Shown here in pieces: positions 3,233 to 28,462 of a stretch of 29,317 bases of DNA; the stretch's first letter is position 1, and the number at the start of each line of letters is the position of its first letter. Origin of the DNA: an uncultured bacterium (GTDB lineage: Bacteria > Planctomycetota > PLA2). The notes beneath the pieces are model-generated. The model saw nothing but the letters and a program-made list of their open reading frames with translations. It made no database searches and was not told the origin of the DNA. The stretch is from assembly GCA_965369495.1 (NCBI GenBank), contig CBDURV010000001.1:1-29317 (forward strand), in the 5' to 3' direction. The translations under genes were made by a program, and so were the position numbers.

Positions 3233-3416
3233 CGATACGGTACCGGGTGTTTTCCTGCGAAACTCGCGAGTCAACTTGGCAGACGAGTTTCGGAGACTTA
3301 CTCCCGGTACCGGATCTCACGAGGCCGTCACGGCCCGCGACCGGGCGAGCATCGACCGGTGTCCTCTTCCGAGGGCGCGTACTCGGAAGAATCGTGCCTG
3401 GCGCAGTAGTTCCAGG
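3233..3416 (+). repeat. Full bipartite element R1: left flank CGATA + module A (3238-3312, 75 bp palindrome) + linker type alpha + module B (3349-3416)
   Basis: A = CGGTACCGGG-tgttttcctg-CGAAACTCG-17 nt-CGAGTTTCG-gagacttact-CCCGGTACCG. B = gcatcgaccggtgtcctcTTCCGAGggcgcgtaCTCGGAAgaatcgtgcctggcgcagtagttccagg. Near-identical to copies at 13323 and 18510. Confidence 0.95.
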
Positions 3417-3490
3417 GCCGAAAAACCGGCGTGGCTTTTATCCGGCTCGGTTTGCCACTGCGCCACGCGGAACGACCCTACAATCCGCGC

Positions 3491-6064
3491 GTGGGAAACC
3501 GTGCACTTGCCTTGCTCCTGATTCCGTTCCTGTTCGGCGCTTGCGATAAGAGCAGCGCGACAAAGCGGACGCCGCAGGCCGACTTCTCCGAGGACGCCGT
3601 CGCGGCGCGCGTCGAACTGCTGCGTGCCGATGTCGAAGCCGAGCTCGGCGACACGATCGGCTCCGTGGATGTGACAATTTCGACCCCGAAAGACATGGCG
3701 AAGCTGTTGCAGCCGGAGTTGGAGCGCACCTACTCTGAAATTGAGGGCGGCTTGCGCGGCGCAACCCTGAAGAAGCAGTGCGAACTCGAAGCGCAGGCAT
3801 ACTCGTCCGCCCTACTCGCCAAGGTCGCAATGACGGGAGCGGCGTTGCACGTCTGCCCCGAGAATTTCAAGCGCATCGCGGACATCACGCCGGAGTGGGC
3901 GGGGATCCAGTCGCCGGACGGGCTCGACATCATCTTGATCCATGAGCTGGTGCATGTCTGGCAGGAGCGCCGCTACAAGCTGGAGACGTTCATCGGAACG
4001 CCCAGGAGCCTGGATGCGTTGCTCGCGCGCAGCGCGGTGCTCGAGGGACATGCCCAGCTGGTGACGCGCGCGGTCGCGCAGCGGCGCGGGATCAGCGAGG
4101 CGTTCGAACTTCTGGAGAGGACCCAGACCGAGGTGCCGGATTCCACGACCGACCCGGCCGCGCGTCAGCAGATGCAGCTGACGCAAGCGGTGACGAGCTT
4201 CACCTATGCACAGGGGCTGCGTCTGTGGGACGAGGTGATTGCGGAACTGGGGCGCCCGGCTGCGGTTGAGCTGCTGTTCACGGAGCCCCCCAGCTCGACG
4301 CGGGCGGTGGAGCGCGAGGGGCAGTACCTTCACCCGACGCCGGAACCCGAGGTCGATCTGGATCGCGCGATCCGCCAGCTTCGTCGCTATCTCGGGGAGT
4401 TCGAAAAACAGCCGCCGCAGGTCGTACCGATGATGCACGGGGCGCTACGCGTCGCGCTCTCCGCCGGCGGACCCGTTGCGCAGCGCGCCATCGATGACGT
4501 CGTGCGCGGCGCCGGGGTTATTGGCGCGCGGCACATCGTCGGCGTCGTGTTGTGCCGAAGCCCGCGCGCCGCCCGCGCCCTGATGGAAGCGTCGCTGATC
4601 GACGCGCGCGCGCGGGTGAAGCTGTTCGCCGACGGCGCGACCACGTTGCGCATCGTGTCGGAAGAGGACGTGGCCGGCGTCGCGGGCAAGTTCCTGCAGC
4701 TCAGAGTCGAGTCGGGGGGCAACACGATCAAGCTCAAGCGGGGGCTGTTCGCGGACGGCTACATCTTCGTGGACGTCGTCGCGCCGGACGGGGATCGCGA
4801 GCGGATGGTGCGCATGCTTCCCCGCCTGGCCTCACTGTTGGCCAAACCGTCACCGTGGAGCGGGATGGAGCGAGCACAGGCGATCGCCGAGATGCAGACC
4901 AGCCTGTCGCACGCCGACGTGACGGTACGCTGGCGTGCAGTGCGCAACCTCGCCCGCCTGATCGAGGCGCGGCCGGACCTCGAGACGGCGCTCCTGGGTG
5001 CGGCCGCGGACGCCGATCCGGGTGTGCGCCTCGTGGTCATGCGCGCAATGGCCGCAGCGGGACACGACCTCGTTCGTTTCGCCAAGGACCACGACTGGGA
5101 GGTGCGCGAGGCGTACTGCCGGCTGCGCGCGGAAGACGACGATCCCAAGCCGAAGCGAATCGAGATGCTCAAGCCGTTCCTCACGGACGAGTCGCACCTG
5201 GTTCAGTTGGCGGCATGCGAGGCGCTTGAGGAACTCGATGCGGAAAAGGACATTTCTTTCGACGCGATTGAGACGCTCTTCGCCTCGCCGGACGGCCGCG
5301 TCCGCGAGGCTGCGCTCGGCCTGATCCACTACTCCGTAAAAGGCACGCGCATAGCGGACCTCATGCTGCGCGCACTCGATGACGAGGAGACCAACGTTCG
5401 CGCGCGCGCCGCCCGGCGCGTTGACAAATACGTCAGCGCAAGCGGTCGCGCCGTTCCGAAGCTGATAGGGCTCCTGGACGACAAGTCGGTGCGTGTACAG
5501 CTCGCCGCGTTGAACGGACTGGGGGATTACGGCGCCGGTGCCAAAGAGTCGGTTGGCCGGATCATCCCGATGCTGGACGACCCGAAGTTGCGCGACGCCG
5601 CCGCGGACGCGTTGGCGGAGATGGGTTCGGTAGCGGGAGCCGCCAAGCCGGCCCTGGTGCGTGGGCTGAACTCGGAAGATCGTCGCTTCGCGTTCAAGGC
5701 GGCGGAGGCACTCTGGAAGCTTCGCTATCCGCGGCTGAAGTTGCTGCCGGTTCTTGCGGACACACTCAAGAACGGCAGCAGGTGGGATCGCGGCGACGCG
5801 GCGACGCTGCTGGCCAAGATCGGTGAGCCTGCGCGCGGCTACATTCCGGAGATCATCGAGCTTCTGGATTCGGACCAGGAGTATGTGCGGCGTGACGCCA
5901 TACAGGCATTGGGCGAGTTCGGGCCGGCCGCCAAAGCGGCGTTGCCGAAGTTGCGCACGATGCTCAAGACGCTGCCCAACGGCGTCGATTCCGGTCTGGG
6001 CCTGGGCGGTGGCGAACTGCGGGCCACGACGGTCGAAACGGCGATCAAGAAGATCGAAGGCTAG
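3491..6064 (+). CDS. Putative lipoprotein: HEXXH zinc-metallopeptidase-like domain plus C-terminal HEAT repeats
   Basis: In-frame GTG at 3491 gives VGNRALALLLIPFLFGA-C (lipobox-like). IHELVHVWQ is followed by AVLEGHA (possible third Zn ligand). Many HEAT-like units (D....VR..A...L..). Start uncertain (ORF track 3431). Confidence 0.75.
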   Translation: MGNRALALLLIPFLFGACDKSSATKRTPQADFSEDAVAARVELLRADVEAELGDTIGSVDVTISTPKDMAKLLQPELERTYSEIEGGLRGATLKKQCELEAQAYSSALLAKVAMTGAALHVCPENFKRIADITPEWAGIQSPDGLDIILIHELVHVWQERRYKLETFIGTPRSLDALLARSAVLEGHAQLVTRAVAQRRGISEAFELLERTQTEVPDSTTDPAARQQMQLTQAVTSFTYAQGLRLWDEVIAELGRPAAVELLFTEPPSSTRAVEREGQYLHPTPEPEVDLDRAIRQLRRYLGEFEKQPPQVVPMMHGALRVALSAGGPVAQRAIDDVVRGAGVIGARHIVGVVLCRSPRAARALMEASLIDARARVKLFADGATTLRIVSEEDVAGVAGKFLQLRVESGGNTIKLKRGLFADGYIFVDVVAPDGDRERMVRMLPRLASLLAKPSPWSGMERAQAIAEMQTSLSHADVTVRWRAVRNLARLIEARPDLETALLGAAADADPGVRLVVMRAMAAAGHDLVRFAKDHDWEVREAYCRLRAEDDDPKPKRIEMLKPFLTDESHLVQLAACEALEELDAEKDISFDAIETLFASPDGRVREAALGLIHYSVKGTRIADLMLRALDDEETNVRARAARRVDKYVSASGRAVPKLIGLLDDKSVRVQLAALNGLGDYGAGAKESVGRIIPMLDDPKLRDAAADALAEMGSVAGAAKPALVRGLNSEDRRFAFKAAEALWKLRYPRLKLLPVLADTLKNGSRWDRGDAATLLAKIGEPARGYIPEIIELLDSDQEYVRRDAIQALGEFGPAAKAALPKLRTMLKTLPNGVDSGLGLGGGELRATTVETAIKKIEG

Positions 6065-6077
6065 GAAGCGCGAACGA

Positions 6078-6095
6078 CCCGGTACCGAATCTCAC
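6078..6095 (+). repeat. Remnant of the element: right end of module A plus start of linker
   Basis: CCCGGTACCGAATCTCAC versus CCCGGTACCGGATCTCAC at 3303-3320; 13 nt after the stop of 3491..6064. Confidence 0.75.
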
Positions 6096-6123
6096 AGCAA
6101 ATGAACGTGGTACGGACTCATTT

Positions 6124-6148
6124 GGGGGGAAGGGGCACGGGGAAGGGG
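6124..6148 (+). other. Canonical G-quadruplex-forming motif in intergenic DNA
   Basis: GGGGGG-AA-GGGG-CAC-GGGG-AA-GGGG: four tracts of at least 4 G with 2-3 nt loops, ~40 nt upstream of the ATG at 6187. Confidence 0.55.
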
Positions 6149-6186
6149 CGAATACCCGAACCGTAAACCGTGTATTTTCGTTCGAG

Positions 6187-9100
6187 ATGCGCATCCTGGG
6201 ACGTCTTGTGGCTCTCGGCCTCTTGGCCACGCTGTTGTGGAAAGCACGCGGTCCCGAGTACCGCGTAGTCCCGCTCGAGATTCCGTACACCGACGCGGAT
6301 GACCCGTTCACTCCCGACTCGCTTCGCGAACGGTTGGTCCGAATCGCGGGCGTACTCGGCAAAATTGTCGGCGATCCTGTGGAAGTCGCGGACATCCGGA
6401 TCGTTGTTGCCGACGACCGCGTGGAGGGAACGCGCGCAGCGCTTGAGCAGGACCCGAACTTCTTCGATCCCCGATCCGCCGACTATCACAGAATGGGCGC
6501 GAACATCGAGCTGGCCGTGCGCGCGGCGCGCTGGCTGGGGTATCTGGGACGCTACGACTCGACCACGCGGACGGTTCAGATATTCCCGGCTTGCTTTGAG
6601 GAGTTGAAGACCGCGGAGCTTAGCGCGGTGCTCGACGTCGTTATCGCACACGAGCTGGTCCACGTCTGGCAAGACCAGCAGTTCGGGCTGGCCGGAGACC
6701 ACACCACGAGCGATACGAGCGAAGCGCTCGTGGCGCGCGCCGCGATCGTCGAGGGGTCCGCGGAGTTCTTATCACGTCTCGTCGCACGTCGACTGGGAAT
6801 CGAACCCTCGTGGGAGACAATCGCAACGGGCAAGGAGGAACGGCGCGTCAACCCTGCGAATTCGCCGGGCACAGTCTCCGCCCAGCAAATTCACGAGTGG
6901 GCCTACGCGCGCGGACTCGCATTTGTTGAACGCGTTCACGAGGCCGGCGGGGGTAGGGACATCTGGCGGCGCCTCTTCGAAAATCCGCCACGTGACGTTT
7001 GGAGCATCGAGCAACCGGATCACTGGATCGCGCACCCGCGCGATGTGGCGCGCGACCTCGATTCGTGGGTCAAGCGCTTCCTGGCCAACCGCGCGCGTCC
7101 GATCCTGCACATTCCGATGTTGCGCCGCTGGGGGCATCGACCGATCGTGCGCGCCGATCTGCACAACCGGCTTGAGCACGCCGGCATCGCGCTCGATGAC
7201 GCCCCCTGGAGTGGATGTCGCGGCGGCGTATTGATCCACGGTCGGCCGTTCAGCGGACCGCTCGAACGCACCAACATCTTGTTGCGCGTATGGCGGCTCT
7301 CATCGGCGGAGCAGGCGACTCGGGCGCGCGCGCAACTGGTGGACGCCATGCGAGCGCATCAGTTTGACGGTGGTATCACGGGGCGCGCACGCATGCGGAA
7401 AGGTGAAGGGCTCGCGCTGTCCTGGACCCGTTTCGGCGCAGCGAGCACGGCGCCGACGGAGATCGTCTGGGCGGTTCGAGTCGAGCACGATCTTGTCATC
7501 GAAGGACTCACCACCGGGGCGGGTGTAGCGCCGGTCCTGCTCGCGCTCCTTGGCTCCGAATACGTTTCACGCCACGACAAGGTAGAAGACGAGCGTGCAT
7601 GGCTCCGCGAACCGCACGTTGCGAGTGAATGGCTGACCGCGCTTCGCCCCGAGAGCAAGACGGAACGAGGTCCGATGCTCGTCGCAGCACTGGACCACGA
7701 AGATTCCGACGTTCGTCGCTTCGCCCTCGGTCAGCTTGCCGTCGAAGGATGCGTGCCGCGCCCGTTCGCGGTCGAAGTTCCCGCGCTGGTGCAGTCGCGG
7801 ATGTTGTCAACCGATCCCGCGGAGCGTGCGGTGGCCATCGCCGCCGCGGACCGGTTGGAAGCCGAGATGGACCTGCCGTTCGGGACGCTCGACAAGCTCG
7901 CGACGAGTGATTCTGTCTTGGTGCGCGCCACTCTCGCAGGCTGCCGCAATCTGGATGCGCCGCGAGATGTGCTACAGCAGGATCGCGATCCCGAGGTTCG
8001 ACGCATCGCGTCGGCTCCAAAAGATACGCGGCGCGACTTGGGCGACCTCTTGATGGATCGGATCACCAAACGAGTCGATGCCACTTCAACCGAGGCTCCT
8101 GACGACGAGAGCGACACCGCCGTCCTGTTCGATGCTCTGCTCAGCAGTGTCTCGGACGGCGACAGTGCGCAACTGCACGCTCGCATTCTTCACCTTCTGC
8201 GATCGGACCAACCGACGCTGCGGCTGAATGGAGTGATGGCCGCGCGCCACTTGGACGAGATTCCCGGCGCCATCGCAGCCGAGCTCGTGCGCACATTCGG
8301 GTCCCCCATCCTGCGACGCGTCACCGTAGACGCATTGTCGGGCGAAAGCGTGAACCTCACACCGATTCGCAGCACACTCGTTGGGTATCTCGACCACCCG
8401 CGCTGGCGGGCCGCATCACTCCAAGCTCTTGCCGCAGCTGCGGATGGTCCCGCCCCGCCGGTGCTCACGCGCACGCAGGCCTGGATCAAAGATCACGATC
8501 CACAGGTGCGCTGCGCCGCTGCGGTTCTTCTCCTCCGACACGGCGACGCAGCTGTAGAGGACCTTCAACGCGTGGTGCTCGCCGCGTGGCCGCACGTCCC
8601 GCCGAACCTGCGGGCGGCTGCCATCAAGGTCTCGCCCAAGCTCGTGCGCGCGGCGCTGTCCTCCCCGATTCACGACGAGTGCAAGGCGGCCGCAAAGGCT
8701 GCAATCGAAGCTGGGCGCGGGGCCGAAATCCTCGAAGTACTGCCGACCATGGGACCGATGGTGGCCACGGAGCTCTGGGGCGCGTACCTGGACGGAGCGG
8801 ACGAATCGGAGGAGCGAATCCTCACACTGATTGAGTATCTCGACCGTTGGAGCACCGAAACACTGCCGGAGCTCGCCCTCGACGACATTTACGTGCCGTA
8901 CCTGGGCATCGATAACACTGCGCTGGCTCGCAAGCTGATTGCCGCGCTCGACCGCTGCATCGTCCTGGACTCCGCGCCCGCTACTCGAATGGTGCTAACC
9001 ATGGTCCGTCTGGAGCTCGAACCGGACGGCGAGTCGGAATCTGCCGCCGTTCGAGATGCCATCCACGATCTAATCTCGTTGCGAGGTGCGCCAGACTACG

Positions 9101-9417
9101 TGGATTGGACTGTCGAGCAAACCGTCGAGAAGTTCCTGCGGGAGCGCGACGGAATGAGCGAGTCGCAATTCTCGGCATACCTCATGCGGCGAGCCCGGCA
9201 GGCGTTCGAGGGCTACGGCGAGAATGGCGGCATCGAGCGGTACGTGCGCGAAGTCCCTGCCCGGCGTCGCGCTGCGCAGGCGCTCCTCCCCGAGCTCATC
9301 CGTATGAACACACGATCGAGCGTCGAACTGGCGTCACAGATCCTCGAGCTCTTCCCGGAATCCACAGTCAAGATTCCGGACACACTGCCGAGCTGGGAAC
9401 CGTGGCTCTACCGGTAA
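6187..9417 (+). CDS. Secreted/membrane-anchored HEXXH metallopeptidase-like protein with HEAT-like repeats (paralog of the upstream gene)
   Basis: Hydrophobic N-terminus MRILGRLVALGLLATLLW. AHELVHVWQDQQFGL and AIVEGSAE match HELVHVWQ...AVLEGHAQ of the upstream gene. Degenerate HEAT units (DHEDSDVRRFAL, DRDPEVRRIA, DHDPQVRCAAA). Confidence 0.75.
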   Translation: MRILGRLVALGLLATLLWKARGPEYRVVPLEIPYTDADDPFTPDSLRERLVRIAGVLGKIVGDPVEVADIRIVVADDRVEGTRAALEQDPNFFDPRSADYHRMGANIELAVRAARWLGYLGRYDSTTRTVQIFPACFEELKTAELSAVLDVVIAHELVHVWQDQQFGLAGDHTTSDTSEALVARAAIVEGSAEFLSRLVARRLGIEPSWETIATGKEERRVNPANSPGTVSAQQIHEWAYARGLAFVERVHEAGGGRDIWRRLFENPPRDVWSIEQPDHWIAHPRDVARDLDSWVKRFLANRARPILHIPMLRRWGHRPIVRADLHNRLEHAGIALDDAPWSGCRGGVLIHGRPFSGPLERTNILLRVWRLSSAEQATRARAQLVDAMRAHQFDGGITGRARMRKGEGLALSWTRFGAASTAPTEIVWAVRVEHDLVIEGLTTGAGVAPVLLALLGSEYVSRHDKVEDERAWLREPHVASEWLTALRPESKTERGPMLVAALDHEDSDVRRFALGQLAVEGCVPRPFAVEVPALVQSRMLSTDPAERAVAIAAADRLEAEMDLPFGTLDKLATSDSVLVRATLAGCRNLDAPRDVLQQDRDPEVRRIASAPKDTRRDLGDLLMDRITKRVDATSTEAPDDESDTAVLFDALLSSVSDGDSAQLHARILHLLRSDQPTLRLNGVMAARHLDEIPGAIAAELVRTFGSPILRRVTVDALSGESVNLTPIRSTLVGYLDHPRWRAASLQALAAAADGPAPPVLTRTQAWIKDHDPQVRCAAAVLLLRHGDAAVEDLQRVVLAAWPHVPPNLRAAAIKVSPKLVRAALSSPIHDECKAAAKAAIEAGRGAEILEVLPTMGPMVATELWGAYLDGADESEERILTLIEYLDRWSTETLPELALDDIYVPYLGIDNTALARKLIAALDRCIVLDSAPATRMVLTMVRLELEPDGESESAAVRDAIHDLISLRGAPDYVDWTVEQTVEKFLRERDGMSESQFSAYLMRRARQAFEGYGENGGIERYVREVPARRRAAQALLPELIRMNTRSSVELASQILELFPESTVKIPDTLPSWEPWLYR

Positions 9418-9420
9418 CAT

Positions 9421-9443
9421 CGATACGGTACCGAATCTCGGGT
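9421..9443 (+). repeat. Single-core ('empty') site of the element
   Basis: CGATA-CGGTACCG-AATCTCGGGT: the left flank of R1/R4 joined through one core directly to the type-beta right flank of R3/R4, with no module A interior. Confidence 0.8.
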
Positions 9444-9452
9444 GATTGGCAG

Positions 9453-11414: not shown

Positions 11415-11441
11415 GGTTTTCGAGAATACCCGACGAACCGC

Positions 11442-11468
11442 GATTGGCCGGGAGCGCACTGGCCAATC
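11442..11468. promoter_or_regulatory. Perfect 8-bp inverted repeat in a divergent intergenic region (possible operator)
   Basis: GATTGGCC-11 nt-GGCCAATC between the divergent starts at 11414 (-) and 11570 (+). Confidence 0.3.
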
Positions 11469-11569
11469 CCTCCGGGGTGAACGCACCACCATCCGCTACC
11501 GCTTGGTGACGGCGGCGCTTGAAAACTCAGCGGATTTGCCGCGGCACGGGATTCGCCTTCGGGAGATGT

Positions 11570-12430: not shown

Positions 12431-12469
12431 AACTCGGTGCCACGTCCGTTCGCTGCAGTTGTGGAGCGC

Positions 12470-12571
12470 CACGAGACCGTCACTGCCCGCGACGACCGGG
12501 TAAGCATCGACCGGTGTCCTCTTCCGAGGGCGCTTACTTGGAAAAATTGTGCCTGGCGCCGTACTTCCAGG
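12470..12571 (+). repeat. Partial element R2: linker type alpha plus module B, without module A
   Basis: cacgagaccgtcactgcccgcgacgaccgggtaagcatcgaccggtgtcctcttccgagggcgcttacttggaaaaattgtgcctggcgccgtacttccagg aligns over ~100 nt with 3318-3416. Confidence 0.9.
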
Positions 12572-12578
12572 TTTTTTT
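12551..12578 (+). terminator. Possible weak intrinsic terminator at the end of module B
   Basis: CCTGG-10 nt-CCAGG followed by T7 (12572-12578), downstream of the VIT-like gene. The stem is short. Confidence 0.35.
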
Positions 12579-12680
12579 GCCCGTCCCCTGTGGATGTCCG
12601 CGCGCCAATCGCAGTGCTGTATGTACGGCCCCGTCGTGGATGGGGTAATGGTCGGATACTGCCATCGGGAGTTCTTCTTC

Positions 12681-13313: not shown

Positions 13314-13322
13314 TCGCGCGCG

Positions 13323-13500
13323 CGGTACCGGGTGTTTTCCTGCGAAACTCGCGAGTCAATTTGGCAGACGAGTCTCGGAGAATTACTCCCGGTACCGAAT
13401 CTCGGGTCGATCCGGACCGGGATTAGATGCACGGCATCGACCGGTGTCCTCTTCCGAGGGCGCTTACTCGGAAAAATTGTGTCTGACGCCGTATTCCCGT
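13323..13500 (+). repeat. Full bipartite element R3: module A (13323-13397) + linker type beta + module B (13434-~13497)
   Basis: Module A differs from R1 at 3 of 75 positions. Linker aatctcgggtcgatccggaccgggattagatgcacg. Begins 9 nt after the PEP-CTERM stop. Confidence 0.95.
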
Positions 13501-13565
13501 TGCTGCGCTGACCACGTAGATCCTGGTCAACCGAAGGAGGCGCGAAATTCCGGAACGAGCCGTCC

Positions 13566-14723: not shown

Positions 14724-14733
14724 GGCCGTTCGA

Positions 14734-16119: not shown

Positions 16120-16168
16120 CTCCTCGTCCTCCGCGGTTGACCGTTCGCCCTTGTAGCATGAACCTCCC

Positions 16169-17104: not shown

Positions 17105-17150
17105 CGAAACTCGGATCCCTTGTCCGGGATCGAAACCCTGTGCTTCCCGT

Positions 17151-17162
17151 CGATACGGTACC
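17151..17162 (+). repeat. Left end of element R4 (CGATA-CGGTACC), split by the IS
   Basis: Joining 17151-17162 to 18512 onward rebuilds CGATACGGTACCGGGTGTTTTCC exactly as at 3233, and a 75-bp module A. Confidence 0.9.
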
Positions 17163-17195
17163 CCTTTAGAAAAGTGCAAGGGCCGATCTCATCCT

Positions 17196-17410
17196 GACAG
17201 TTCTGGCATTGGATTTCGTTCCTGTGGGCCCGTCCGCGTCGGTCTTGTCCAGTCGCCTTGTCGAGCTGGGCGGAGCCCGCTCAGGAAAGTAGTCGGCGGG
17301 GCCTTCATCCGAGGTGACGGCCTCTGTGAGGCCAGTAGCGCATCGAAGTGCCTCGCCGTTGAGTTCCGACTTGGTCGGGTAGTCTGTTTTGATGTCGAAG
17401 AGCGTGCGCG
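17196..17410 (-). ncRNA. Candidate seek/bridge RNA region (3' non-coding end of the IS1111-like element)
   Basis: Position downstream of the transposase and inside the subterminal IR matches where IS1111-type elements encode guide RNA (established knowledge). Local hairpins include CCGAC-CAA-GTCGG and GGCCTC-ACA-GAGGCC. Guide segments were not identified by eye. Confidence 0.5.
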
Positions 17411-18438
17411 CTACGCCTTGCCGAGGCAGCGCTCCATGCTGAATACTTCGCCGCGCGACAGCACGATGTAGATGCCGACCAGCAGGCGCCGCGCGAGAGT
17501 CGTCCGCACGTTGTTGGCATGCATCCGGCGCCGGTAGGGCTCGGCCCACTTGCGCACCAGCGGATGCGTGCTCATCAGCCGCACCGCGGTCTGGTTGAGG
17601 ATCCAGCGCAGCTCCTTGTTGCCCTTCTTGGTGATCCGGCCGTGGTGGCTCGTATCTGCCGAGTTGGCGACCCGTGGCACAAGCCCACTGTAGGACGCCG
17701 CCGCGCGCGCGTTGCGAAAGCGGCTCACGTCACCGAGCTCGGCCACCAGCGTCAACGCGGTCTGCGCGCCGACCTGCGGGATCATCGCCTGCAGCGCGGC
17801 AACCTTGCTCGCTTTGGCGCGTTCGACGATCCGCTTGTGCAGTCGTCGGATCGACTCCTCCATCTGCTCCAGCGCAAACACCAGCGCGTCCATGCAGCAG
17901 TCGAGATCCAGCACCGCTAGGCAGATCGCCCGCAGGCGCGCTAGCTGGCGGGGTGCGTAGAGCAGCCCTCTGGGCGGGGCGACCTTGAACGCGTCCAGCA
18001 GCGCGCGGATGCGATTGCTCAGGTGCGTGCGCTGCCCGACGAGGTCGTGCCGGATCCGCTCGAGCTGACGCAGTGCATACACCTCGTCGGACGGATAGTG
18101 GTCTTCGCAAAGCGATCGAGATCACCGAGACGCAGGCGCCGCGCGATCTCGTGCGCGTCGCGACGATCGTTCTTCTTGCCGCAGGACCGCAGATTGAGCC
18201 GCGCCGCATCGACGACAACGATGTCGTAGCCGCGTTCTTGGCAGGCGTTGACAAACCAGCGGTTCAAGCCGACCGCCTCCACGGCGAATCGAGCGGGGCT
18301 CCACTGGCTCAGATGGGCGACGAGGGCGAGCCCCAGATCGAGCGTCTCGACCCGATGGCGCTCCTCCGCGTCGAGCACACGAATCTGAATCACACTCTTG
18401 TGCAAATCGACTACAACGAAATACTGGGTATGGGGCAT
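17411..18438 (-). pseudogene. IS110-family transposase with a one-base deletion near 18100
   Basis: N-part: VDLHK, AVEAVG, KKNDRRDA (DEDD RuvC-like). C-part: IPQVGAQTA..LVAELGD..RF.NAR...SYSGLVP....SAD....GRITKKGN..LR. The frames join at AAG ACC AC TAT CCG TCC GAC GAG; adding one base gives a ~342-aa protein. AAGGA RBS upstream of the ATG at 18438. Confidence 0.9.
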
Positions 18439-18509
18439 GGTCGGTTGTTCCTTTCCGTCTTGTGGGAAGACTTCAGAAAGGATGCGATCGGCCTACCCCG
18501 CTATACCTT

Positions 18510-18681
18510 CCGGGTGTTTTCCTGCGAAACTCGCGAGTCAATTTGGCAGACGAGTTTCGGAGAATTACTCCCGGTACCGAATCTCGGGTCGATCCGGACC
18601 GGGATTGGATGCACGGCATCGACCGGCGTCCTCTTCCGAGGGCGCTTACTCGGAAAAACTGTGTCTGACGCCGTACTTCCT
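18510..18681 (+). repeat. Remainder of full element R4: module A (to 18579) + linker type beta + module B (18616-~18681)
   Basis: ccgggtgttttcctgcgaaactcgcgagtcaatttggcagacgagtttcggagaattactcccggtaccgaatctcgggtcgatccggaccgggattggatgcacggcatcgaccggcgtcctcttccgagggcgcttactcggaaaaactgtgtctgacgccgtacttcc, nearly identical to R3. Confidence 0.95.
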
Positions 18682-18734
18682 AGTACTTCCTCTCGAACGA
18701 GCATCCGCGGCGCGCGGCGAGTACCCTGACTCGC

Positions 18735-21416
18735 ATGGCCGCCGATGCCCCCGCCCTCATCCTGCGCGACGGAACGACCGTGCGTGTGCGGCTGTGTACG
18801 CCCGAAGACGTTCCGGCGATGCGGGAGTTTCTGGCCCGCGTCGAACAGCGCGCCGGTAGCGACAGCACCCTGCGCGAGCGAGCCATGGGGCACGTTACCG
18901 TGGAGGAGCTTTGCGACTGCGAGCGGCCGGATGACCGATTGACAGTGCTTGCGCTGCGCACGATCGACGGCGTGGAGCGCGTCGTCGGATCGGCGAGCTA
19001 TGTCGCCACTGACGACGGCGCAGCCGAGATCGCCCTGGGCGTCGATGCGGACTTCCGCGGGCTTGGTCTCGCGACGGCGCTGGTCGAGCGGATCGCACCG
19101 GCCGCCGCACACCATGGCCATCGACGGCTGATCGTGCGCGTGGCAGAGGGCAACGAGCGCCTGCTCGAGTTGCTGCGGCGCAGCGGTTACCCCCTCGCGG
19201 AGGACCAGGCGCGTGGCCTCGTCGTCGTGGACATCTCTGCCATGCCGCAGGGCGAGGCCCGCGAACGCGGAGAACTGCGCGATCGCCTGGCAGCCGCCGC
19301 GTCGATGCGCCCCTTCTTCCATCCGCGCGCCGTCGCCGTAGTGGGAGCGTCCCGCAACGAGGACAGCCTCGGCTTCCGCACGCTGCACGCCCTCGTGCTG
19401 AATCGCTTCCACGGTCCCGTCTATGCGGTGAACCCGAAGGCGGCCAGCGTCGGCGCGATCCCCTGCTACCCCTCTGTAAGCGAATTGCCGGGGCCCGTCG
19501 ATCTCGCCATCGTCCTCGTCCCCAAGCAGCATGTCGATGCCGTCGTGGACGACTGCGCGGCGGCGGGCGTCCGCGCGCTGGTCGTCATCACCGCAGGCTA
19601 CGCGGAGACGGGCGAAGAGGGACGGGCGCGCCAGGATCGCCTGCGGGATCGCGTGCGCGGCCATGGCATGCGCATGGTCGGGCCGAACTGCATGGGGCTC
19701 ATCAACGCCGACCCCGAGGTGCGCTTGGCAGCCACGTTCGCTCCCGCGTTCCCGCCGGCCGGCAACGTCGCCATGAGTTCGCAGAGCGGTGCGCTCGGCC
19801 TGGCCATTCTCGCGACCGCGGAGGAGATCGGCATGGGCCTCTCCACGTTCGTGAGCGTGGGCAACAAGGCTGACGTCTCGGCGAACGATCTGTTGCTCTA
19901 CTGGGAAGGCGACGAGCACACGGACGTGATCCTGCTCTACGTCGAGTCCTTCGGCAACCCGCGCTGCTTCGCGCGCATCGCTCGGCGCATCGGCCGCGAG
20001 AAACCCATCGTCGCAGTGAAGAGCGGCCGCACGCGCGCAGGCAAGCGGGCCGCGGGGAGTCACACGGCCGCCCTCGCCGAGAGCGACGTCGCGGTCGATG
20101 CGCTCTTCAGCCAGACGGGCGTGCTGCGGGCGGAGACGCTGGAGGAAATGTTCGACATCGCGTTGGTGCTGTCGAGCCAGCCTCTGCCGCGAGGCAACCG
20201 GGTGGCCATCCTCACCAACGCCGGCGGGCCCGGCATCCTGGCCGCGGACGCCCTTGAGTCCCGCGGCATGCAGATCGCGGAACTGAGCGCGGACGTGCGG
20301 GCGCGGCTCGCGGAGTTCCTCCCGGAGGAGGCCAGCACCACGAACCCCGTCGACATGATCGCCGGGGCCGGTGCGCAGGAGTACGCGCGCGCGGTGCAGG
20401 TGCTGCTCGAGGCAGACGAAGTGGATGCGCTGATTCTGATTCACGCGCCGATCGAGGCTTCGCATCTCGTCTCCGTGGAAGATGCCCTGCACGATGTGCT
20501 CGCGAAGATCGACGCAGACGATCACAAGCCGGTGCTGACTTGTTTGATGGGGGCCGGGGGAAGGGGGCCGGCACGGCGCCTGCGTCGCGGGGTGCCGTCC
20601 TACGCGTTTCCGGAGGCGGCCGCGCGTGTGCTTGGGCGAGTCGCCGAATACGCGGCGTGGCGTCGTGAACCCCTGGGCGTCGAGCCTGAGTTCGAGGATT
20701 TCAACGCGGATGCCGCGCGCGGCGTGTGCGATCGCGTGCTGGCCGAGCGCGGAGACGGCTGGTTGCTGCCCGACGAGGTGGCGGCACTCGGTGCGGCCTG
20801 CGGACTGCCGCTCGTGGAGGGGCGTGTCGCGACGTCGGCCGACGAGGCGGCCGACGTCGCGGAGTCGCTCGGGATGCCGGTCGTCGCGAAGCTCGTCAGC
20901 CGCACCCTGGTTCACAAGACCGACCTTGGCGGCGTGCAGCTGAATCTGCGTGACGCCGCGGCAGTGCGGAACGCGTTCGACACCATCCGCGGAGCGCTCG
21001 AGACGGCGGGCCACGAAGACGCGTTCGAGGGCGTGCTGGTGCAACCCATGCTCTCGGGCGGCGTCGAGATCATGGCCGGCATGACCGAGGATCCGGTCTT
21101 CGGGCCCTTGATTGCCTTCGGTCTCGGCGGAATTCACGTCGAGGTGTTGGGGGACGTGGTGTTCCGCGTGGCGCCCCTGACCGACAAGGACGCACACGAG
21201 ATGGTGCAGGGCATTCGCGGTCGCAAGCTCTTGGAGGGCTACCGGGGCCATCCGCCGGCGGACGAGCCGGCGCTCGAGGAAATGTTGCTGCGCCTGTCGC
21301 GACTGGTGGACGAGGTCGACGAGATCGACGACCTCGACATCAATCCGGCGTTCGCCCTGCCGCCCGGCGAAGGTTGCCGGATCGTGGATCTACGCGTGCA
21401 CGTGCGGCGCGGTTGA
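18735..21416 (+). CDS. GNAT acetyltransferase (N-terminal) fused to an NDP-forming acyl-CoA synthetase-like region (Pat-type protein lysine acetyltransferase, GNAT-first architecture)
   Basis: LRDGTTVRVR...ED, AEIALGVDADFRGLGLATAL (GNAT). FFHPRAVAVVGASR, GPVYAVNP, GPNCMG, SQSGALG, VSVGNKADVS, YVESFGNP, KSGRT, SHTAALA, TNAGGPG, NPVD. ATP-grasp HKTDLGGV, VLVQPM, DPVFGP, DINP. Confidence 0.9.
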   Translation: MAADAPALILRDGTTVRVRLCTPEDVPAMREFLARVEQRAGSDSTLRERAMGHVTVEELCDCERPDDRLTVLALRTIDGVERVVGSASYVATDDGAAEIALGVDADFRGLGLATALVERIAPAAAHHGHRRLIVRVAEGNERLLELLRRSGYPLAEDQARGLVVVDISAMPQGEARERGELRDRLAAAASMRPFFHPRAVAVVGASRNEDSLGFRTLHALVLNRFHGPVYAVNPKAASVGAIPCYPSVSELPGPVDLAIVLVPKQHVDAVVDDCAAAGVRALVVITAGYAETGEEGRARQDRLRDRVRGHGMRMVGPNCMGLINADPEVRLAATFAPAFPPAGNVAMSSQSGALGLAILATAEEIGMGLSTFVSVGNKADVSANDLLLYWEGDEHTDVILLYVESFGNPRCFARIARRIGREKPIVAVKSGRTRAGKRAAGSHTAALAESDVAVDALFSQTGVLRAETLEEMFDIALVLSSQPLPRGNRVAILTNAGGPGILAADALESRGMQIAELSADVRARLAEFLPEEASTTNPVDMIAGAGAQEYARAVQVLLEADEVDALILIHAPIEASHLVSVEDALHDVLAKIDADDHKPVLTCLMGAGGRGPARRLRRGVPSYAFPEAAARVLGRVAEYAAWRREPLGVEPEFEDFNADAARGVCDRVLAERGDGWLLPDEVAALGAACGLPLVEGRVATSADEAADVAESLGMPVVAKLVSRTLVHKTDLGGVQLNLRDAAAVRNAFDTIRGALETAGHEDAFEGVLVQPMLSGGVEIMAGMTEDPVFGPLIAFGLGGIHVEVLGDVVFRVAPLTDKDAHEMVQGIRGRKLLEGYRGHPPADEPALEEMLLRLSRLVDEVDEIDDLDINPAFALPPGEGCRIVDLRVHVRRG

Positions 21417-21431
21417 TCACGCTCGCGAGTA

Positions 21432-21556
21432 CGGTTCCGGGAGTCTTCTTGCGAAACTCGCGGGAAGACCGATCTGGCCTCCCGCACCGGGGCCAACAGC
21501 TCCGGCAAGCCGCGCCAATTCGACAGACGAGTTTCGACGAGTTCTTCCCGGTACCG
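21432..21556 (+). repeat. Diverged module A (R5, 125 bp) with a 50-nt central insertion
   Basis: First 30 nt match the consensus 26/30 and last 45 nt match 36/45. The insert (21462-21511) sits at the hairpin apex. CGAAACTCG/CGAGTTTCG inner boxes are intact. Confidence 0.85.
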
Positions 21557-21585
21557 TATTCGGGCGCAGTTGCTCCGGGACGCGA

Positions 21586-24159
21586 TCAGCGACTGGCGCT
21601 CGCGGCGGCGGCGGCGACCATCGGCTGCCTGCTCTTGGCCGCCTTCTCGATCACCTTGCGCAGCTTATCGATTTCGGTCTTCCCATGGTCGACGTAGATA
21701 GGTGCGAGCAGCGCCATGAGACCGGCGCCGACGGTGTAAACCTTGCCGCCGTACGGGCCCCACGCTCCGATAGGCTCCCAGCCGGGCGTCTTGACCGACG
21801 TAAGCATCGTGTTGAGTTGGAGCAGCCACCTTTGGGCCATTTTGCTGGGCTCAGCCTGGCAAAGCAGGCGCGCGCCGAACGCCCAGTAGAGATAGTCGAC
21901 CTCGTCGCGTTTCTCGGTGTCCCAGCCGGGCTCCCGATCCTGTACGACCGCGCGCCCGAGCTTGTACGTCGAGCCGACCTTCGTAACTTCCGGCTCGACC
22001 AGGGCGCGGCACCAACAGGCGATGGCGGTCGTGGAATACACGCTTCGGTCGCGACCTATGATCGTGCGTCCGCGGATTTCGATCGTGTCCGTGCCAAGTT
22101 GTTTCTTGAACATGGGGAACGCCGGGCTGCCGCCAGCGACGTTGTAGCCGACCTGCCCGAATTCGGGATCGGTCATCTTGGTGAACCAGTCGATGCCGCC
22201 CTGGAGAGCGATCGCCGAGCGTATTCCTGTCGCGTGCTCCGCGGCGACGAGCGCGTAGATACACCAGCCGGTGCAGAAGGTGTCATTGTCGCCCGGTCGC
22301 GCCCGGTAGCGCCACGCGAGGGACGGGTTGCGCGCCTTCCGCAGGTACTTGATGGCGTGTTCAAGCGTGCGGTTCATCGACTTGCCGCCGCTCAAGATCG
22401 CGTGTTCGGCCAGCGCGGCGGTCGAGATGGCGTGCAACAGCACGTGGTGCGTGTGCTTGCGTTCACCGATGAGGCCGTCCTTCTGCTGCCAGCGCTGCAG
22501 GTAGCGGCAGGCGGCCAAGACTGTCGAGCCGTGCCGGGGATGCTGCTCGGTCACACCTGCCGCCGCGTATCCGAGCAGCGCCATCGCCGTCACGCCGAGA
22601 TCGCAATCGGGGTTGCCGCCGTACTTGTCGCAGTCCCACGCCGCCCAGTCCTCGGTGCGCTCCACAGACCGTGTGAGCCAGTCGAGAGCGCCCTCCGCTT
22701 TCTTGCGGGTCTTGGTGTCGAGTTTCGCGAATCGAGCCGTGCGCAACTCCGGCACGCCGGGCACCGCCTCGCGCACGATGCGGGCGATTGCGCGCACCGC
22801 CACGCTGGCGACGCGCGGATCCTTGTCGCGCGCGACATCGGTGAGCAGTTCGAGCAGGTCGGGGTGGAGCGGCCGCACAAGCCCGGCGAGTTCGATGACG
22901 CCGGGAGTGCGCGCTTGGCTCGCGGCCGCAGCGAACACGTCAATGTGCGGTCGCGGTTTGCCGACCTGGAAGAGCCGATACCAGCAGTACGCGCGGACGG
23001 CGGGGTTTTCGTCCTTTAGACCTCGCCGAAGGTCCGCCTCCTGCGCATCGGACCAGCGAAAGCGCGTCACGACAACCCGATACACTGCGGCGCGCACGCC
23101 CTCGTCGGCATCCTTGGTCGCGGCGGGCACGCCCCCGAGGACATCCTTCGGAACCTTCGAGTATGTGGAGGCGAGCAGCCCGAAGAACGCGCGCCGCACG
23201 GCAGGATCCTTGTGCGTCGCAAGCGAACCGAGTTTGTCGAACGGGAGGCCCTGCTGCTTGGTGTTGGCCCAGTCCACGCGCGCGAGCGCTTCGAGCAGCG
23301 GCGCGTTGCCCTTGGCCGCTTCGGTGGCGATGGTGCCGTGCAATTTGGGGGCGAGGAAAGAAATGGCATCGATCGTGGTCGGGAGTCGCGCCAATAACTC
23401 GGGCCAAATCTCATCGCTCACGGGTGTCACCGACTCGGCCGCGGCCGCGCGCACCACCGGCGCCGGATCCTCCAGCGCCTTGAGCAGGACGCGAACGACC
23501 ATCTGCTTGTCTGGCAGAACCTGCGCCGCCGCCCGCACAGCGTTTCCACGCACGCTGGCTTCAGGATCGGCGCAAGCCGCCTGGATCCTCGCGGAATAGC
23601 GTCCCGCCTTCGGCCCGAATGCGACCAGCGCACCATATCCCGCGGCGCGACGCGTCTTGCTCTTGGAGTCGAGGTACTTCTCCAGCGCGGCAAAGCTGGG
23701 CGGCCCCACTTTCGCAAGGGCTGCCGCCGCAGCGGCGCGGGTGTCCGCGTGTCGTGAGATCAGCAGGCGGCAGAGTGCGGAAACGTGTTTTGATCGCGCG
23801 TAGAGGAGTGCGGGCGCGAGCGTGCGGCGAACGGTGGGATCGTCGTCGCCGGCTACGCGAATGATGCTCGTTCCATGCTTCGTGAAGGTGGCCGCATCCT
23901 TGCTCCACTCGGCCAGTAACGCGGCCGCGGAGCGGCGTCCGGGAACCGAAATCTTCTTCCACGCCTTGAGCACGTCCTTGGTCGCCCGCGGGCCGTACGA
24001 GCGCAACACATCGCTGGCCTCTTGCGCCCTGTCCGCACGGCGCGAGCCGAGCGCGATGGCCCACTTGCCCGTATCCACTTGCCCGTGCGCCACCCCCGCG
24101 AGCAACATCAGAGTCACGCAGATCGAACCGCAGATCGAACCACTTTCCATCGGGGGCAT
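21586..24159 (-). CDS. Secreted HEAT-repeat protein with a C-terminal prenyltransferase/squalene-cyclase-repeat (alpha-alpha toroid) domain
   Basis: Signal-like VTLMLLAGVAHG-Q; HEAT units (DDDPTVRR, DPEASVRGNAV, DADEGVRAAV). GVTAMALLGY..AG, YLQRWQQKDG, HAISTAAL, AWRYRARPGDND..CTGW..AL, FGQVGY. Exact start uncertain (24159, 24150 or a later codon). Confidence 0.75.
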   Translation of the reverse strand: MPPMESGSICGSICVTLMLLAGVAHGQVDTGKWAIALGSRRADRAQEASDVLRSYGPRATKDVLKAWKKISVPGRRSAAALLAEWSKDAATFTKHGTSIIRVAGDDDPTVRRTLAPALLYARSKHVSALCRLLISRHADTRAAAAAALAKVGPPSFAALEKYLDSKSKTRRAAGYGALVAFGPKAGRYSARIQAACADPEASVRGNAVRAAAQVLPDKQMVVRVLLKALEDPAPVVRAAAAESVTPVSDEIWPELLARLPTTIDAISFLAPKLHGTIATEAAKGNAPLLEALARVDWANTKQQGLPFDKLGSLATHKDPAVRRAFFGLLASTYSKVPKDVLGGVPAATKDADEGVRAAVYRVVVTRFRWSDAQEADLRRGLKDENPAVRAYCWYRLFQVGKPRPHIDVFAAAASQARTPGVIELAGLVRPLHPDLLELLTDVARDKDPRVASVAVRAIARIVREAVPGVPELRTARFAKLDTKTRKKAEGALDWLTRSVERTEDWAAWDCDKYGGNPDCDLGVTAMALLGYAAAGVTEQHPRHGSTVLAACRYLQRWQQKDGLIGERKHTHHVLLHAISTAALAEHAILSGGKSMNRTLEHAIKYLRKARNPSLAWRYRARPGDNDTFCTGWCIYALVAAEHATGIRSAIALQGGIDWFTKMTDPEFGQVGYNVAGGSPAFPMFKKQLGTDTIEIRGRTIIGRDRSVYSTTAIACWCRALVEPEVTKVGSTYKLGRAVVQDREPGWDTEKRDEVDYLYWAFGARLLCQAEPSKMAQRWLLQLNTMLTSVKTPGWEPIGAWGPYGGKVYTVGAGLMALLAPIYVDHGKTEIDKLRKVIEKAAKSRQPMVAAAAASASR

Positions 24160-24219
24160 CGTAACAGGCTGGAAGATCTGGGCTTAGGGCGGTGGAGCGC
24201 GGAACGCGGTCCGCGGTAC

Positions 24220-24402
24220 CGATCACGCGAGTCTCGAATTGAGTCCGTTCGGCGCAGCGCCGAGCGATAGCGGGCGGAACGCGTGTCGCGCCCGTAGCTC
24301 ACGGATTCGGACCGCGCTTTCTGGACGATGGCGTGCGAGTTCCTGGAGAACTGGAGAGAACACCTCGTCATCGTGAACCCCGAGACGGTGATTCGCTGGC
24401 AT
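24220..24402 (+). pseudogene. Decayed N-terminal fragment of a DDE 'integrase core domain' (IS3/IS481-like) transposase
   Basis: Translates as ...RP*LTDSDRAFWTMACEFLENWREHLVIVNPETVIRWH, matching the recognisable RPRLT..DR.FW......W...LVIV.PETV.RWH motif. In-frame stops and a frameshift upstream. Bracketed by CGGTACCG at 24214-24221 and 24404-24411. Confidence 0.7.
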
Positions 24403-24416
24403 CCGGTACCGTATCG

Positions 24417-24487
24417 CGGTACCGGGTGTTTTCCAAACTCGCGGGTCAAATTGGCAGACGAGTTTCGGAGAATTACTCCCGGTACCG
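24417..24487 (+). repeat. Module A copy R6 (71 bp; 4-nt deletion of TGCG), preceded by an inverted left-end motif CGGTACCGTATCG (24404-24416)
   Basis: cggtaccgggtgttttcc----aaactcgcgggtcaaattggcagacgagtttcggagaattactcccggtaccg; ends 4 nt from the stop of the next gene. Confidence 0.92.
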
Positions 24488-24491
24488 GGCC

Positions 24492-28451: not shown

Positions 28452-28462
28452 ACGTCCCGCCC

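What the first reader, a model, noticed from the sequence alone, without database searches (positions are those of the whole stretch)
3233..24487. Co-oriented palindromic element that partitions unrelated genes into cassette-like units: candidate non-integron gene-cassette array
Seen: the same element or its parts occupies 8 of 13 intergenic regions (3233, 6078, 9421, 12470, 13323, 17151/18510, 21432, 24417). All eight are in the same orientation; the chance under independent random orientation is 1/128. They hug stop codons (3, 4, 9, 9, 13 and 15 nt away) and are absent inside coupled or divergent gene groups (14724-14733, 16120-16168, 11415-11569, 28452-28462). The DNA between sites is mostly 2.7-3.7 kb (plus one 0.75 kb and one 0.18 kb unit) and carries functionally unrelated genes in both orientations. 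I count 13 intact CGGTACCG octamers, 12 intergenic, against roughly 1 expected at ~68% GC (GC estimated). Knowledge: integron arrays have co-oriented attC sites next to stop codons, but with RYYYAAC/GTTRRRY ends and usually smaller, co-oriented cassettes. Inference: a cassette-capture/shuffling system with a new recombination site acted on by an enzyme outside the window, or a very abundant REP/MITE-like family.
Basis: partly seen in the sequence, partly recalled or inferred. Interest (0 to 1): 0.9.

Follow-up and report, generated by a model that had tools for sequence, protein, structure and literature searches.

The report
REP/REPIN repeats with their RAYT transposase
The repeated palindromic element is an ordinary kind of bacterial "junk" repeat (REP/REPIN) spread through the whole genome of a marine-sediment Planctomycetota bacterium by a dedicated single-copy transposase found on another contig. 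It is not a new gene-cassette system, although the repeats do mark places where gene order differs between close strains.

Summary
There are 13 CGGTACCG octamers against about 0.5 expected, repeat modules sit in 8 of about 13 intergenic regions, and all copies whose orientation can be scored point the same way.

- Both modules are dispersed in the 726-contig genome: A in about 25 contigs, B in about 40, almost always intergenic.
- Module A is an inverted doublet of about 35-nt arms whose head is GATACGGWWCCGGG, i.e. a REPIN.
- Module B, read on the other strand, is a single REP with a related head (GTACGGCGYCAGR) followed by a hairpin.
- A single-copy HUH/Y1 transposase (RAYT; motifs HLH and Y---NP) lies on contigs C121/C182 between two inverted arms of the same family.
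- Homologous RAYT genes in relatives are flanked the same way in 9 of 10 loci plus L126, all with an RTACGG-type head.
- No integron integrase was found.
- An IS110/IS1111-type element sits inside one REP head, and its homologue in a same-genus genome abuts a similar head.

Two points remain open. Copies are locally clustered and co-oriented. In a sister strain 98% identical across the gene, the acs block (18691-21561) has different neighbours on both sides, with the breaks at REP heads.

Verdict: a new member of a known kind; moderate interest.

The parts
3234..3316 (+). REPIN 1 (module A): arm 3234-3270 (+) and inverted arm 3280-3316 (-). Lies between divergently transcribed genes.
   Evidence: folds to -45 kcal/mol, z -6.0
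3340..3415 (-). REP of type B (module B). Its head is at the right end when read on the - strand. Joined to REPIN 1 by the 'alpha' linker.
6065..6125 (-). Degenerate single REP arm (head TTCGGTACCGGG at 6078-6089 on the - strand) plus a second decayed head. Resembles a second arm subfamily (GGGTTCGTTTGCTGC) seen on other contigs.
9421..9443 (.). Single palindromic head carrying both outer flanks of a REPIN. Read as the footprint left when the central part of a REPIN is excised, or as a precursor.
   Evidence: model of long palindromic REP singlets in PMC3337134
12470..12570 (-). REP of type B with the alpha linker but no module A.
13322..13499 (+). Composite: REPIN 2 (13322-13401), the 'beta' linker, and type-B REP (13424-13499). 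Lies between convergent genes.
17151..17162 (+). Left head fragment of REPIN 3, cut off by the insertion sequence. The core CC is at 17161-17162.
17163..18509 (-). IS110/IS1111-type insertion sequence, 1347 bp. The transposase is in two frames (18438-18019 and 18082-17411), with about 248 nt of non-coding DNA after the gene. It is inserted in the REP head with CC on both sides.
   Evidence: a contig in run X3 has one extra base at 18099
18510..18682 (+). Rest of REPIN 3 (to 18583), the beta linker and type-B REP (18607-18682). It is 96% identical to 13328-13498.
21430..21559 (+). REPIN 4, a variant with about 50 extra nt at the apex. Present at the same place in the sister strain.
24214..24491 (+). 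Cluster: a lone octamer (24214), a fragment of a DDE-transposase N-terminus (about 24290-24400, with copies on C71 and C446), an inverted head (24402-24413) and REPIN 5 (24414-24491).

Best explanation
The elements are the REP sequences of a REP-RAYT system (a 'REPtron') in an uncultured marine-sediment Planctomycetota bacterium.

The basic unit is a roughly 35-nt arm whose head reads GATACGG(T/A)(A/T)CCGGG. Two slightly different arms in inverted orientation form an approximately 85-nt hairpin. This is module A, a REPIN. Module B is a second REP type. Read on the opposite strand it begins with a related head (GTACGGCG(C/T)CAG(G/A)) and continues into a 7-10-bp hairpin. A and B join through short linkers into mosaics like the BIMEs of E. 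coli.

Inferred mechanism: the single-copy HUH/Y1 transposase on C121/C182 cuts and rejoins these hairpins as single-stranded DNA and so spreads them into intergenic DNA. Spread is often over short distances, which would give local clusters of like-oriented copies such as this window. Central excision leaves one-head footprints (9421). The heads are also the target of an IS110/IS1111-type insertion sequence (17163-18509). The repeat clusters are places where gene order breaks between strains.

Shown here: the repeat anatomy, the dispersal, the RAYT gene with flanking arms in this genome and in relatives, the insertion of the IS into the head, and the strain differences.

Inferred only: that this RAYT moves these repeats, and how.
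For: Dispersal and placement
- A occurs in about 25 contigs and B in about 40, nearly all intergenic.
- 35 of 44 strict heads are intergenic in a genome that is 90% coding.
- Copies are enriched between convergent genes: 15 of 44 placed units, against 16% of intergenic spaces overall. There is no link to transcription direction in tandem gene contexts (12 same, 11 opposite).

Structure
- A folds to about -40 to -45 kcal/mol on either strand, z -4 to -6.
- 37 arms were found, as doublets and singlets.
- B read on the other strand begins with RTAC[CG]G in 20 of 27 copies and folds better on that strand (z -4.1 against -1.4).

Transposase
- A Y1_Tnp match is at C121:3-905, equivalent to L031:1988-3031 (347 aa), with motifs HLH and RYIDDNP.
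- Pfam PF01797 scores 37.8 bits against a cut-off of 23. The best NCBIfam model is REP_Tyr_transpos (60.7 bits, whole-model alignment).
- JGI names its homologues RayT.
- Inverted arms of the same family lie about 50 nt upstream and about 120 nt downstream.

Comparative test
- RAYT homologues occur in 33 of 41 relatives.
- In 9 of 10 loci and in L126, the gene is flanked by 22-48-nt inverted arms sharing an RTACGG-type head.
- Those arms are repeated 33 times in G027 and 105 times in G032, with 0 hits for the control pattern.

Species specificity and turnover
- The A+B sequence was not found in 40 relatives.
- Copies differ in structure between strains that are 90-95% identical around the site, while the flanking genes stay in place.

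Literature
- REPINs, RAYT genes flanked by REPs, and excision footprints: PMC3337134, PMC6006769.
- REPs as targets of IS110-family elements: PMC1525189, PMC12288879, PMC11208160.
Against: - The canonical 5' GT[AG]G tetranucleotide of most described REPs is absent; the head is ATAC/GTAC-GG.
- The NCBIfam RAYT equivalog score is below its cut-off (60.7 against 80), and no solved structure was matched by sequence.
- Copy number is tens, not hundreds, in a 78%-complete, fragmented assembly.
- No B copy lies next to the RAYT gene, so the link between B and this enzyme rests only on the similarity of its head.
- Local co-orientation (13 same, 2 opposite neighbour pairs) is not a described REP property. 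In relative G032, neighbouring arms show none (about 29 same, 35 opposite, my count).
- No activity has been shown.
Confidence: 0.85

Rival explanations
1. A cassette-like exchange system: gene-sized blocks bounded by like-oriented REP heads are excised and reinserted as units, by the RAYT acting at two heads on one strand or by an unknown recombinase. The window would then be an array of such blocks.
For: - All scorable copies in the window are co-oriented. Neighbour pairs genome-wide are 13 same and 2 opposite; outside the window, 8 and 2.
- The acs block 18691-21561 is 98% identical across the gene in sister-strain contigs L142/L143 but has different neighbours on both sides. Identity drops just outside a --strand head at each end.
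- More distant relatives have MrpD next to acs, whereas the own MrpD is on C693.
- A 260-bp copy of the acs 3' end lies between two B copies on C63.
- In G027, inverted arms flank 0.35-1.3-kb segments.
Against: - Only one block could be compared between strains. The five window proteins found in the collection are singletons in their 90% clusters; the other five sequences queried were not in it.
- Ordinary homologous recombination between dispersed 70-180-bp repeats gives the same picture.
- No integron integrase was found, and no recombinase other than the broken IS transposase is in the window.
- Blocks hold one to three genes in both orientations.
- Other loci keep gene order across repeat sites (L031 against C121/C182, L032 against C267).
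- No circular or empty-site forms were seen in the contig-level read data.
Confidence: 0.08
2. Miniature inverted-repeat elements (MITEs) derived from a DDE transposon and moved by its transposase, unrelated to the RAYT.
For: Module A has 35-nt terminal inverted repeats. The lineage does carry a true MITE: 235 bp, with TIRs and a CTAG duplication, present in L031 but absent at the same site in C182.
Against: No target-site duplication flanks the A copies. Single arms are common. The same arms flank the RAYT gene here, and arms sharing the head flank its homologues in relatives. No DDE transposase with matching ends was found.
Confidence: 0.04
3. Host-selected structural or regulatory sites (terminators, mRNA-stabilising hairpins, protein-binding sites) whose repetition reflects function, not mobility.
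For: Copies are enriched between convergent genes. The hairpins are stable. In B, paired changes on the + strand keep G-U pairs.
Against: Rfam gave no match. There is no U-tract after the hairpins. There is no fixed relation to gene direction. The sequence is species-specific and structure varies between strains. This reading is compatible with co-option of REPs rather than being an alternative origin.
Confidence: 0.03

Closest known systems
REP/REPIN-RAYT systems (REPtrons), e.g. E. coli REP/BIME with TnpA-REP and Pseudomonas fluorescens SBW25 REPINs
   Same: - Short intergenic repeats that form hairpins.
- Inverted doublets and singlets.
- Mosaics of several REP types.
- A single-copy HUH/Y1 transposase with the Y---NP motif, flanked by its own REPs.
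- Species-specific sequence alongside a vertically widespread enzyme.
- One-head footprints.
   Different: - The head is (A/G)TACGG..CC.GG, not GT[AG]G.
- The arms themselves are only weakly palindromic.
- The RAYT is long (about 340 aa) with an uncharacterised C-terminal half.
- There are tens of copies, strongly clustered and locally co-oriented.
- The host phylum is Planctomycetota.
Integron cassette arrays (attC sites with IntI)
   Same: Co-oriented imperfect hairpin sites next to gene ends. Single-stranded folded DNA is the likely substrate.
   Different: - No IntI.
- No attC consensus.
- Sites are dispersed genome-wide.
- Blocks are large, some multi-gene, and in both orientations.
- Some sites lie in promoter regions.
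REP-targeting IS110-family elements (IS621, ISPpu9, ISPpu10)
   Same: An IS110/IS1111-type element is inserted at a fixed dinucleotide inside a REP head. A homologue in a same-genus genome abuts a similar head.
   Different: The long non-coding end follows the transposase gene (IS1111-like layout). No guide complementarity to the target was found with simple 9-12-mer scans. The copy is frameshifted.

Membership tests
REP/REPIN-RAYT system | Short repeats, many copies, overwhelmingly intergenic | tested here: met
   A in about 25 contigs and B in about 40. 35 of 44 strict heads are intergenic in a 90%-coding genome.
REP/REPIN-RAYT system | Hairpin-forming; inverted doublets (REPINs) as well as singlets | tested here: met
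   Folds of -39 to -45 kcal/mol, z -4 to -6. 37 arms found as doublets and singlets.
REP/REPIN-RAYT system | Cognate low-copy Y1/HUH transposase gene flanked by the same REPs | tested here: met
   C121:3-905 / L031:1988-3031, with arms at L031 1894-1937 (+) and 3152-3187 (-). The same layout is seen in 9 of 10 loci from relatives and in L126.
REP/REPIN-RAYT system | HUH motif and class-2 tyrosine motif Y---NP in the enzyme | tested here: met
   THLHMLV and RYIDDNP in the translation. PF01797 is above its cut-off. The motif definition is from PMC6006769.
REP/REPIN-RAYT system | NCBIfam equivalog REP_Tyr_transpos above its curated cut-off | tested here: not met
   It is the best model and aligns over its whole length, but scores 60.7 bits against a cut-off of 80.
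REP/REPIN-RAYT system | Conserved 5' GT[AG]G tetranucleotide at the foot of the hairpin (canonical classes) | tested here: not met
   Heads read GATACGG.., GTACGG... The literature notes non-canonical classes that lack GT[AG]G.
REP/REPIN-RAYT system | Repeat sequence specific to the species while the enzyme family is shared by relatives | tested here: met
   The A+B sequence was not found in 40 relatives. RAYT homologues are in 33 of 41.
REP/REPIN-RAYT system | Cleavage and rejoining of REP single strands by the enzyme; mobility | not testable with these tools
   Only indirect evidence: a full hairpin against a lone head at one site in two strains, and a one-head junction at 9421.
Integron cassette array | IntI-type integrase at the array edge or elsewhere in the genome | tested here: not met
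   TIGR02249 gives at best 84.9 and 58.2 bits on one gene against a cut-off of 265. There is no tyrosine recombinase in the window. The assembly is 78% complete.
Integron cassette array | attC sites with RYYYAAC / GTTRRRY ends | tested here: not met
   The element ends are the CGGTACCG-type heads. IntegronFinder could not be run.
Integron cassette array | One localised array of mostly single, co-oriented, promoterless genes | tested here: not met
   Elements are dispersed over dozens of contigs. Blocks are 0.2-3.7 kb with genes on both strands.
MITE of a DDE transposon | Terminal inverted repeats plus a target-site duplication | tested here: not met
   Inverted repeats are present, but no direct duplication flanks the copies read. 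Contrast the true MITE with CTAG duplication in L031.

The most novel reading that the evidence does not exclude
REP heads lying on the same strand act as joints at which gene-sized blocks are cut out and rejoined by the HUH transposase. REP clusters such as this window would then be slowly shuffling arrays of gene blocks: a single-strand, RAYT-driven analogue of cassette exchange. The acs block (18691-21561), bounded by a --strand head at each end and found in three different neighbourhoods (this genome, the sister strain, and the more distant relatives L141/L144, which share one), would be its first example.
Probability: 0.1. Interest if true: 0.75.

Novelty: new member of a known kind. Interest (0 to 1): 0.35.

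Why it matters
It removes a false lead: this is not a new cassette-capture system.

It documents a REP-RAYT family in Planctomycetota MAGs with a non-canonical (A/G)TACGG head that is conserved across an order while the arms diverge. That makes it a convenient case for studying how these enzymes recognise their hairpins.

It adds one more natural pairing of an IS110/IS1111-type element with a REP head as target.

If the link between repeat heads and strain-specific gene order holds up in closed genomes, REP clusters would be shown to shape gene order in this lineage.

Tried and rejected
- Rfam scan of the window, permissive threshold: no match.
- tRNA scan: one call (tRNA-Ala, 13733-13818) lying inside a coding region, taken as false.
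- Exact-pattern scan of species-representative genomes for module B: nothing.
- Promoter or 5'-leader role for B: rejected. The downstream gene is co-oriented in 9 strong copies and opposite in 16.
- Link of orientation to replication strand, by contig-level GC3 skew: no signal, 5 of 14 contigs agree. Orientation opposes the gene-strand majority in 11 of 14 contigs, which is weak. Relative G032 shows no neighbour co-orientation.
- Guide-RNA complementarity between the IS non-coding ends and its target: only 6-7-nt matches and no 9-12-mer within 1-2 mismatches. The fold is not better than shuffles, z -1.2.
- Second Y1_Tnp gene (C255) as the enzyme for B: its flanks are not repeated in the genome.
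- Synteny with relatives at DNA level and around acs in species representatives: too distant to inform.
- Laying four sediment runs on 4700-24650: only short, low-depth contigs. No empty sites or circles could be called.
- Cluster look-up of ten window proteins: five are singletons and five were not in the collection, so no further strain comparison was possible.
- Sequence search of the RAYT against solved structures: no hit.
Full report
**The observation**

The window is the whole of contig C1 of a 726-contig, 4.36-Mb, 66% G+C assembly that is 78% complete. CGGTACCG occurs 13 times, against 0.54 expected from shuffles. Repeat finding and profile searches give two modules.
- Module A is about 85 nt. 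Copies are at 3234-3316, 13322-13401, 18509-18583, 21430-21559 and 24414-24491.
- Module B is about 65-75 nt. Copies are at 3340-3415, 12494-12570, 13424-13499 and 18607-18682.

There are also remnants at 6078 and 9421 and a head fragment at 17151-17162.

The gene map comes from codon-position G+C, a simple codon-usage caller and Pfam. It places these features in 8 of about 13-14 intergenic regions. Every copy that can be scored lies on the + strand: A scores 96-104 bits on + against 34-38 on -.
- Six units, not eight, are robustly oriented.
- Two composites (3233, 18510) lie upstream of start codons, not beside stops.
- The octamer varies between copies elsewhere in the genome.

**Dispersal**

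The modules are not confined to this contig. nhmmer finds A in about 25 contigs and B in about 40, almost all between genes. Of 44 strict heads (ACGGWWCCGGG), 35 are intergenic in a genome that is 90% coding.

Copies are enriched between convergent genes: 15 of 44 placed units, against 16% of intergenic spaces overall. In tandem gene contexts they show no preference for the direction of transcription (12 against 11). B is not a promoter or leader element: its downstream gene is co-oriented in 9 strong copies and opposite in 16.

**Anatomy**

Module A is an inverted pair of approximately 35-nt arms. Each begins GATACGG(T/A)(A/T)CCGGG. The left arm continues TGTTTTCCTGCGAAACTCG and the right arm AGTAATTCTCCGAAACTCG. 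The octamer therefore belongs to the inverted-repeat head and is not a duplicated target. In several copies the left and right versions are reverse complements of each other, for example CGGTTCCG and CGGAACCG.

The doublet folds to -39 to -45 kcal/mol on either strand. Arms also occur singly.

Read on the opposite strand, B starts with (A/G)TAC(C/G)G in 20 of 27 strong copies, typically GGAAGTACGGCG(C/T)CAG(G/A). It then forms a 7-10-bp hairpin and folds better on that strand (z -4.1 against -1.4). So B is a second REP type with a related head.

In five composites (three on C1, one each on C63 and C693) the order and orientation A-linker-B are the same. This resembles the mosaic BIMEs of E. 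coli described in PMC6006769 and PMC8266576.

**The enzyme**

A Pfam Y1_Tnp match lies at C121:3-905, cut by the contig end. A metagenome contig from a strain 94-96% identical (L031) joins C121 to C182 and gives the full gene, 1988-3031, 347 aa.

The protein has THLHMLV (the HUH motif) and RYIDDNP, which fits the Y---NP signature of class-2 TnpA-REP proteins (PMC6006769).
- PF01797 scores above its cut-off.
- The best NCBIfam model is REP_Tyr_transpos, aligned over its whole length but below the equivalog cut-off.
- JGI annotates its homologues as RayT.

One arm lies about 50 nt upstream of the gene (L031 1894-1937, +). An inverted arm lies about 120 nt downstream (3152-3187, -). In the own genome these are C121:964-997 and C182:7485-7518. 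A RAYT gene flanked by its own REPs is the defining layout of a REPtron (PMC6006769).

**Comparative test**

Homologues of this RAYT occur in 33 of 41 relatives of the same order. In 9 of 10 loci taken, the gene is flanked by inverted arms of 22-48 nt and 86-100% identity; L126, from another Planctomycetota metagenome contig, shows the same layout. The arm sequences differ between genomes, but the heads share an RTACGG-type core followed by a CC.GG-like motif.

The arm of relative G027 is repeated 33 times and that of G032 105 times, with no hits for the control pattern. The A+B sequence itself was not found in 40 relatives, including one of the same genus.

A species-specific repeat with a conserved head, next to a widely inherited enzyme, is what REP-RAYT systems show.

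**Turnover between strains**

At one site, contig L032 of the related strain has a full hairpin where C267 has only a lone head plus unrelated bases, while the flanking genes stay aligned.

The junction at 9421-9443 carries the left flank, one head and the right flank of a REPIN. This matches the 'long palindromic singlet' that Bertels and Rainey derive from excision of the central part of a REPIN (PMC3337134).

**The insertion sequence**

An IS110-family element occupies 17163-18509 (Transposase_20 and DEDD_Tnp_IS110). It interrupts the head of REPIN 3 between GGTA and GGGTG, with CC on both sides.

Its transposase is split by a frameshift between 18019 and 18121, and a contig in run X3 carries one extra base at 18099. 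In a same-genus genome, the homologous IS end abuts GGGGATACGGTGCC.

REPs are known targets of IS110-family elements (PMC1525189, PMC12288879, PMC11208160). I found no convincing guide complementarity.

**Against a cassette array**

- No integron integrase is detectable.
- The window holds no recombinase other than the broken IS transposase.
- The heads bear no attC consensus.
- The blocks hold one to three genes on both strands.
- The sites are genome-wide.

**What remains unexplained**

1. Clustering. The window holds 6 of 49 units where 0.33 are expected (Poisson 1.3e-6; about 1e-3 after allowing for 726 contigs). C63 holds 4 where 0.13 are expected. G027 also shows tight clusters, one around its RAYT gene.

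2. Co-orientation. Neighbouring units on one contig are co-oriented 13 times and opposed twice; outside the window the counts are 8 and 2. A link to replication direction could not be tested in this fragmented assembly. Neighbouring arms in G032 show no such bias (about 29 against 35 by my count). Short-range copying is my inference; it fits the 96% identity between the composites at 13328-13498 and 18510-18680.

3. Rearrangement at the acs block.
   - In sister-strain contigs L142 and L143, the region 18691-21561 (acs plus REPIN 4) is 98% identical across the gene.
   - Upstream they carry the homologue of the own gene C118:5707-6879 followed by a B copy only about 80% identical. Downstream they carry a protein-kinase gene.
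   - Relatives at 86-89% protein identity have MrpD next to acs. The own MrpD is on C693, followed by another gene and then B and A.
   - A 260-bp copy of the acs 3' end lies between two B copies on C63.
   - The repeats therefore mark rearrangement breakpoints. Homologous recombination between dispersed copies is the simplest cause. Enzyme-made joints at heads are not excluded. No other block could be compared.

**Verdict**

This is a REP/REPIN family with its RAYT in a marine-sediment Planctomycetota MAG. It is a new member of a known kind, with a non-canonical head. The cassette-array reading is not supported.

Noticed in passing
L031:6264-6497 (absent at own C182 ~4416): A 235-bp MITE with 17-nt terminal inverted repeats (CCTGCATTATTCACGAG) and a CTAG duplication. 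It is present in the related strain but not at this site in the own genome. Copies at 80-86% identity lie on C196, C514, C36, C202, C95, C27 and C608.
   Followed up: partly
window 17163-18509; L021:330-370: The IS110/IS1111-type element is frameshifted between 18019 and 18121, and a contig in run X3 has one more base at 18099. Its depth in sediment runs is several-fold that of flanking genes. Its homologue in a same-genus genome abuts a similar REP head.
   Followed up: partly
own C63:7716-8131 (L145): A 260-bp copy of the last 83 codons of the acs gene (96% identical to the sister strain's) sits between two B copies, with a new ATG directly after the first B.
   Followed up: partly
L142/L143 against window 18455-21760: The sister strain has the acs block between different neighbours on both sides. 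The B copy at the junction is only about 80% identical while the gene is 98% identical.
   Followed up: yes
own C255:2330-3064: A second Y1_Tnp gene (244 aa; the best NCBIfam model is also REP_Tyr_transpos, below its cut-off). Its flanks, including a 22-nt perfect palindrome, are not repeated elsewhere in the assembly.
   Followed up: partly
G027:C5:74800-102500: In this relative, 19 of 33 arm copies lie within 28 kb around the RAYT gene. Runs of + arms and - arms enclose segments of 0.35-1.3 kb.
   Followed up: no
window 13733-13818: ARAGORN calls a tRNA-Ala (CGC) inside the coding region of the minus-strand gene 13566-14723. This is probably a false positive.
   Followed up: no
window 13566-17104: The three-gene group (a 385-aa protein, a 461-494-aa protein with a weak nucleoside deoxyribosyltransferase match, and a DHH phosphoesterase) has no close relatives. 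The best DHH homologue is 51% identical, and depth in the sediment runs is low here. It may be strain-specific.
   Followed up: no
window 24290-24400: Fragment of a transposase N-terminus (..IVNPETVIRWH) with 80-84% identical copies on C71 and C446, lying between two REP heads.
   Followed up: partly
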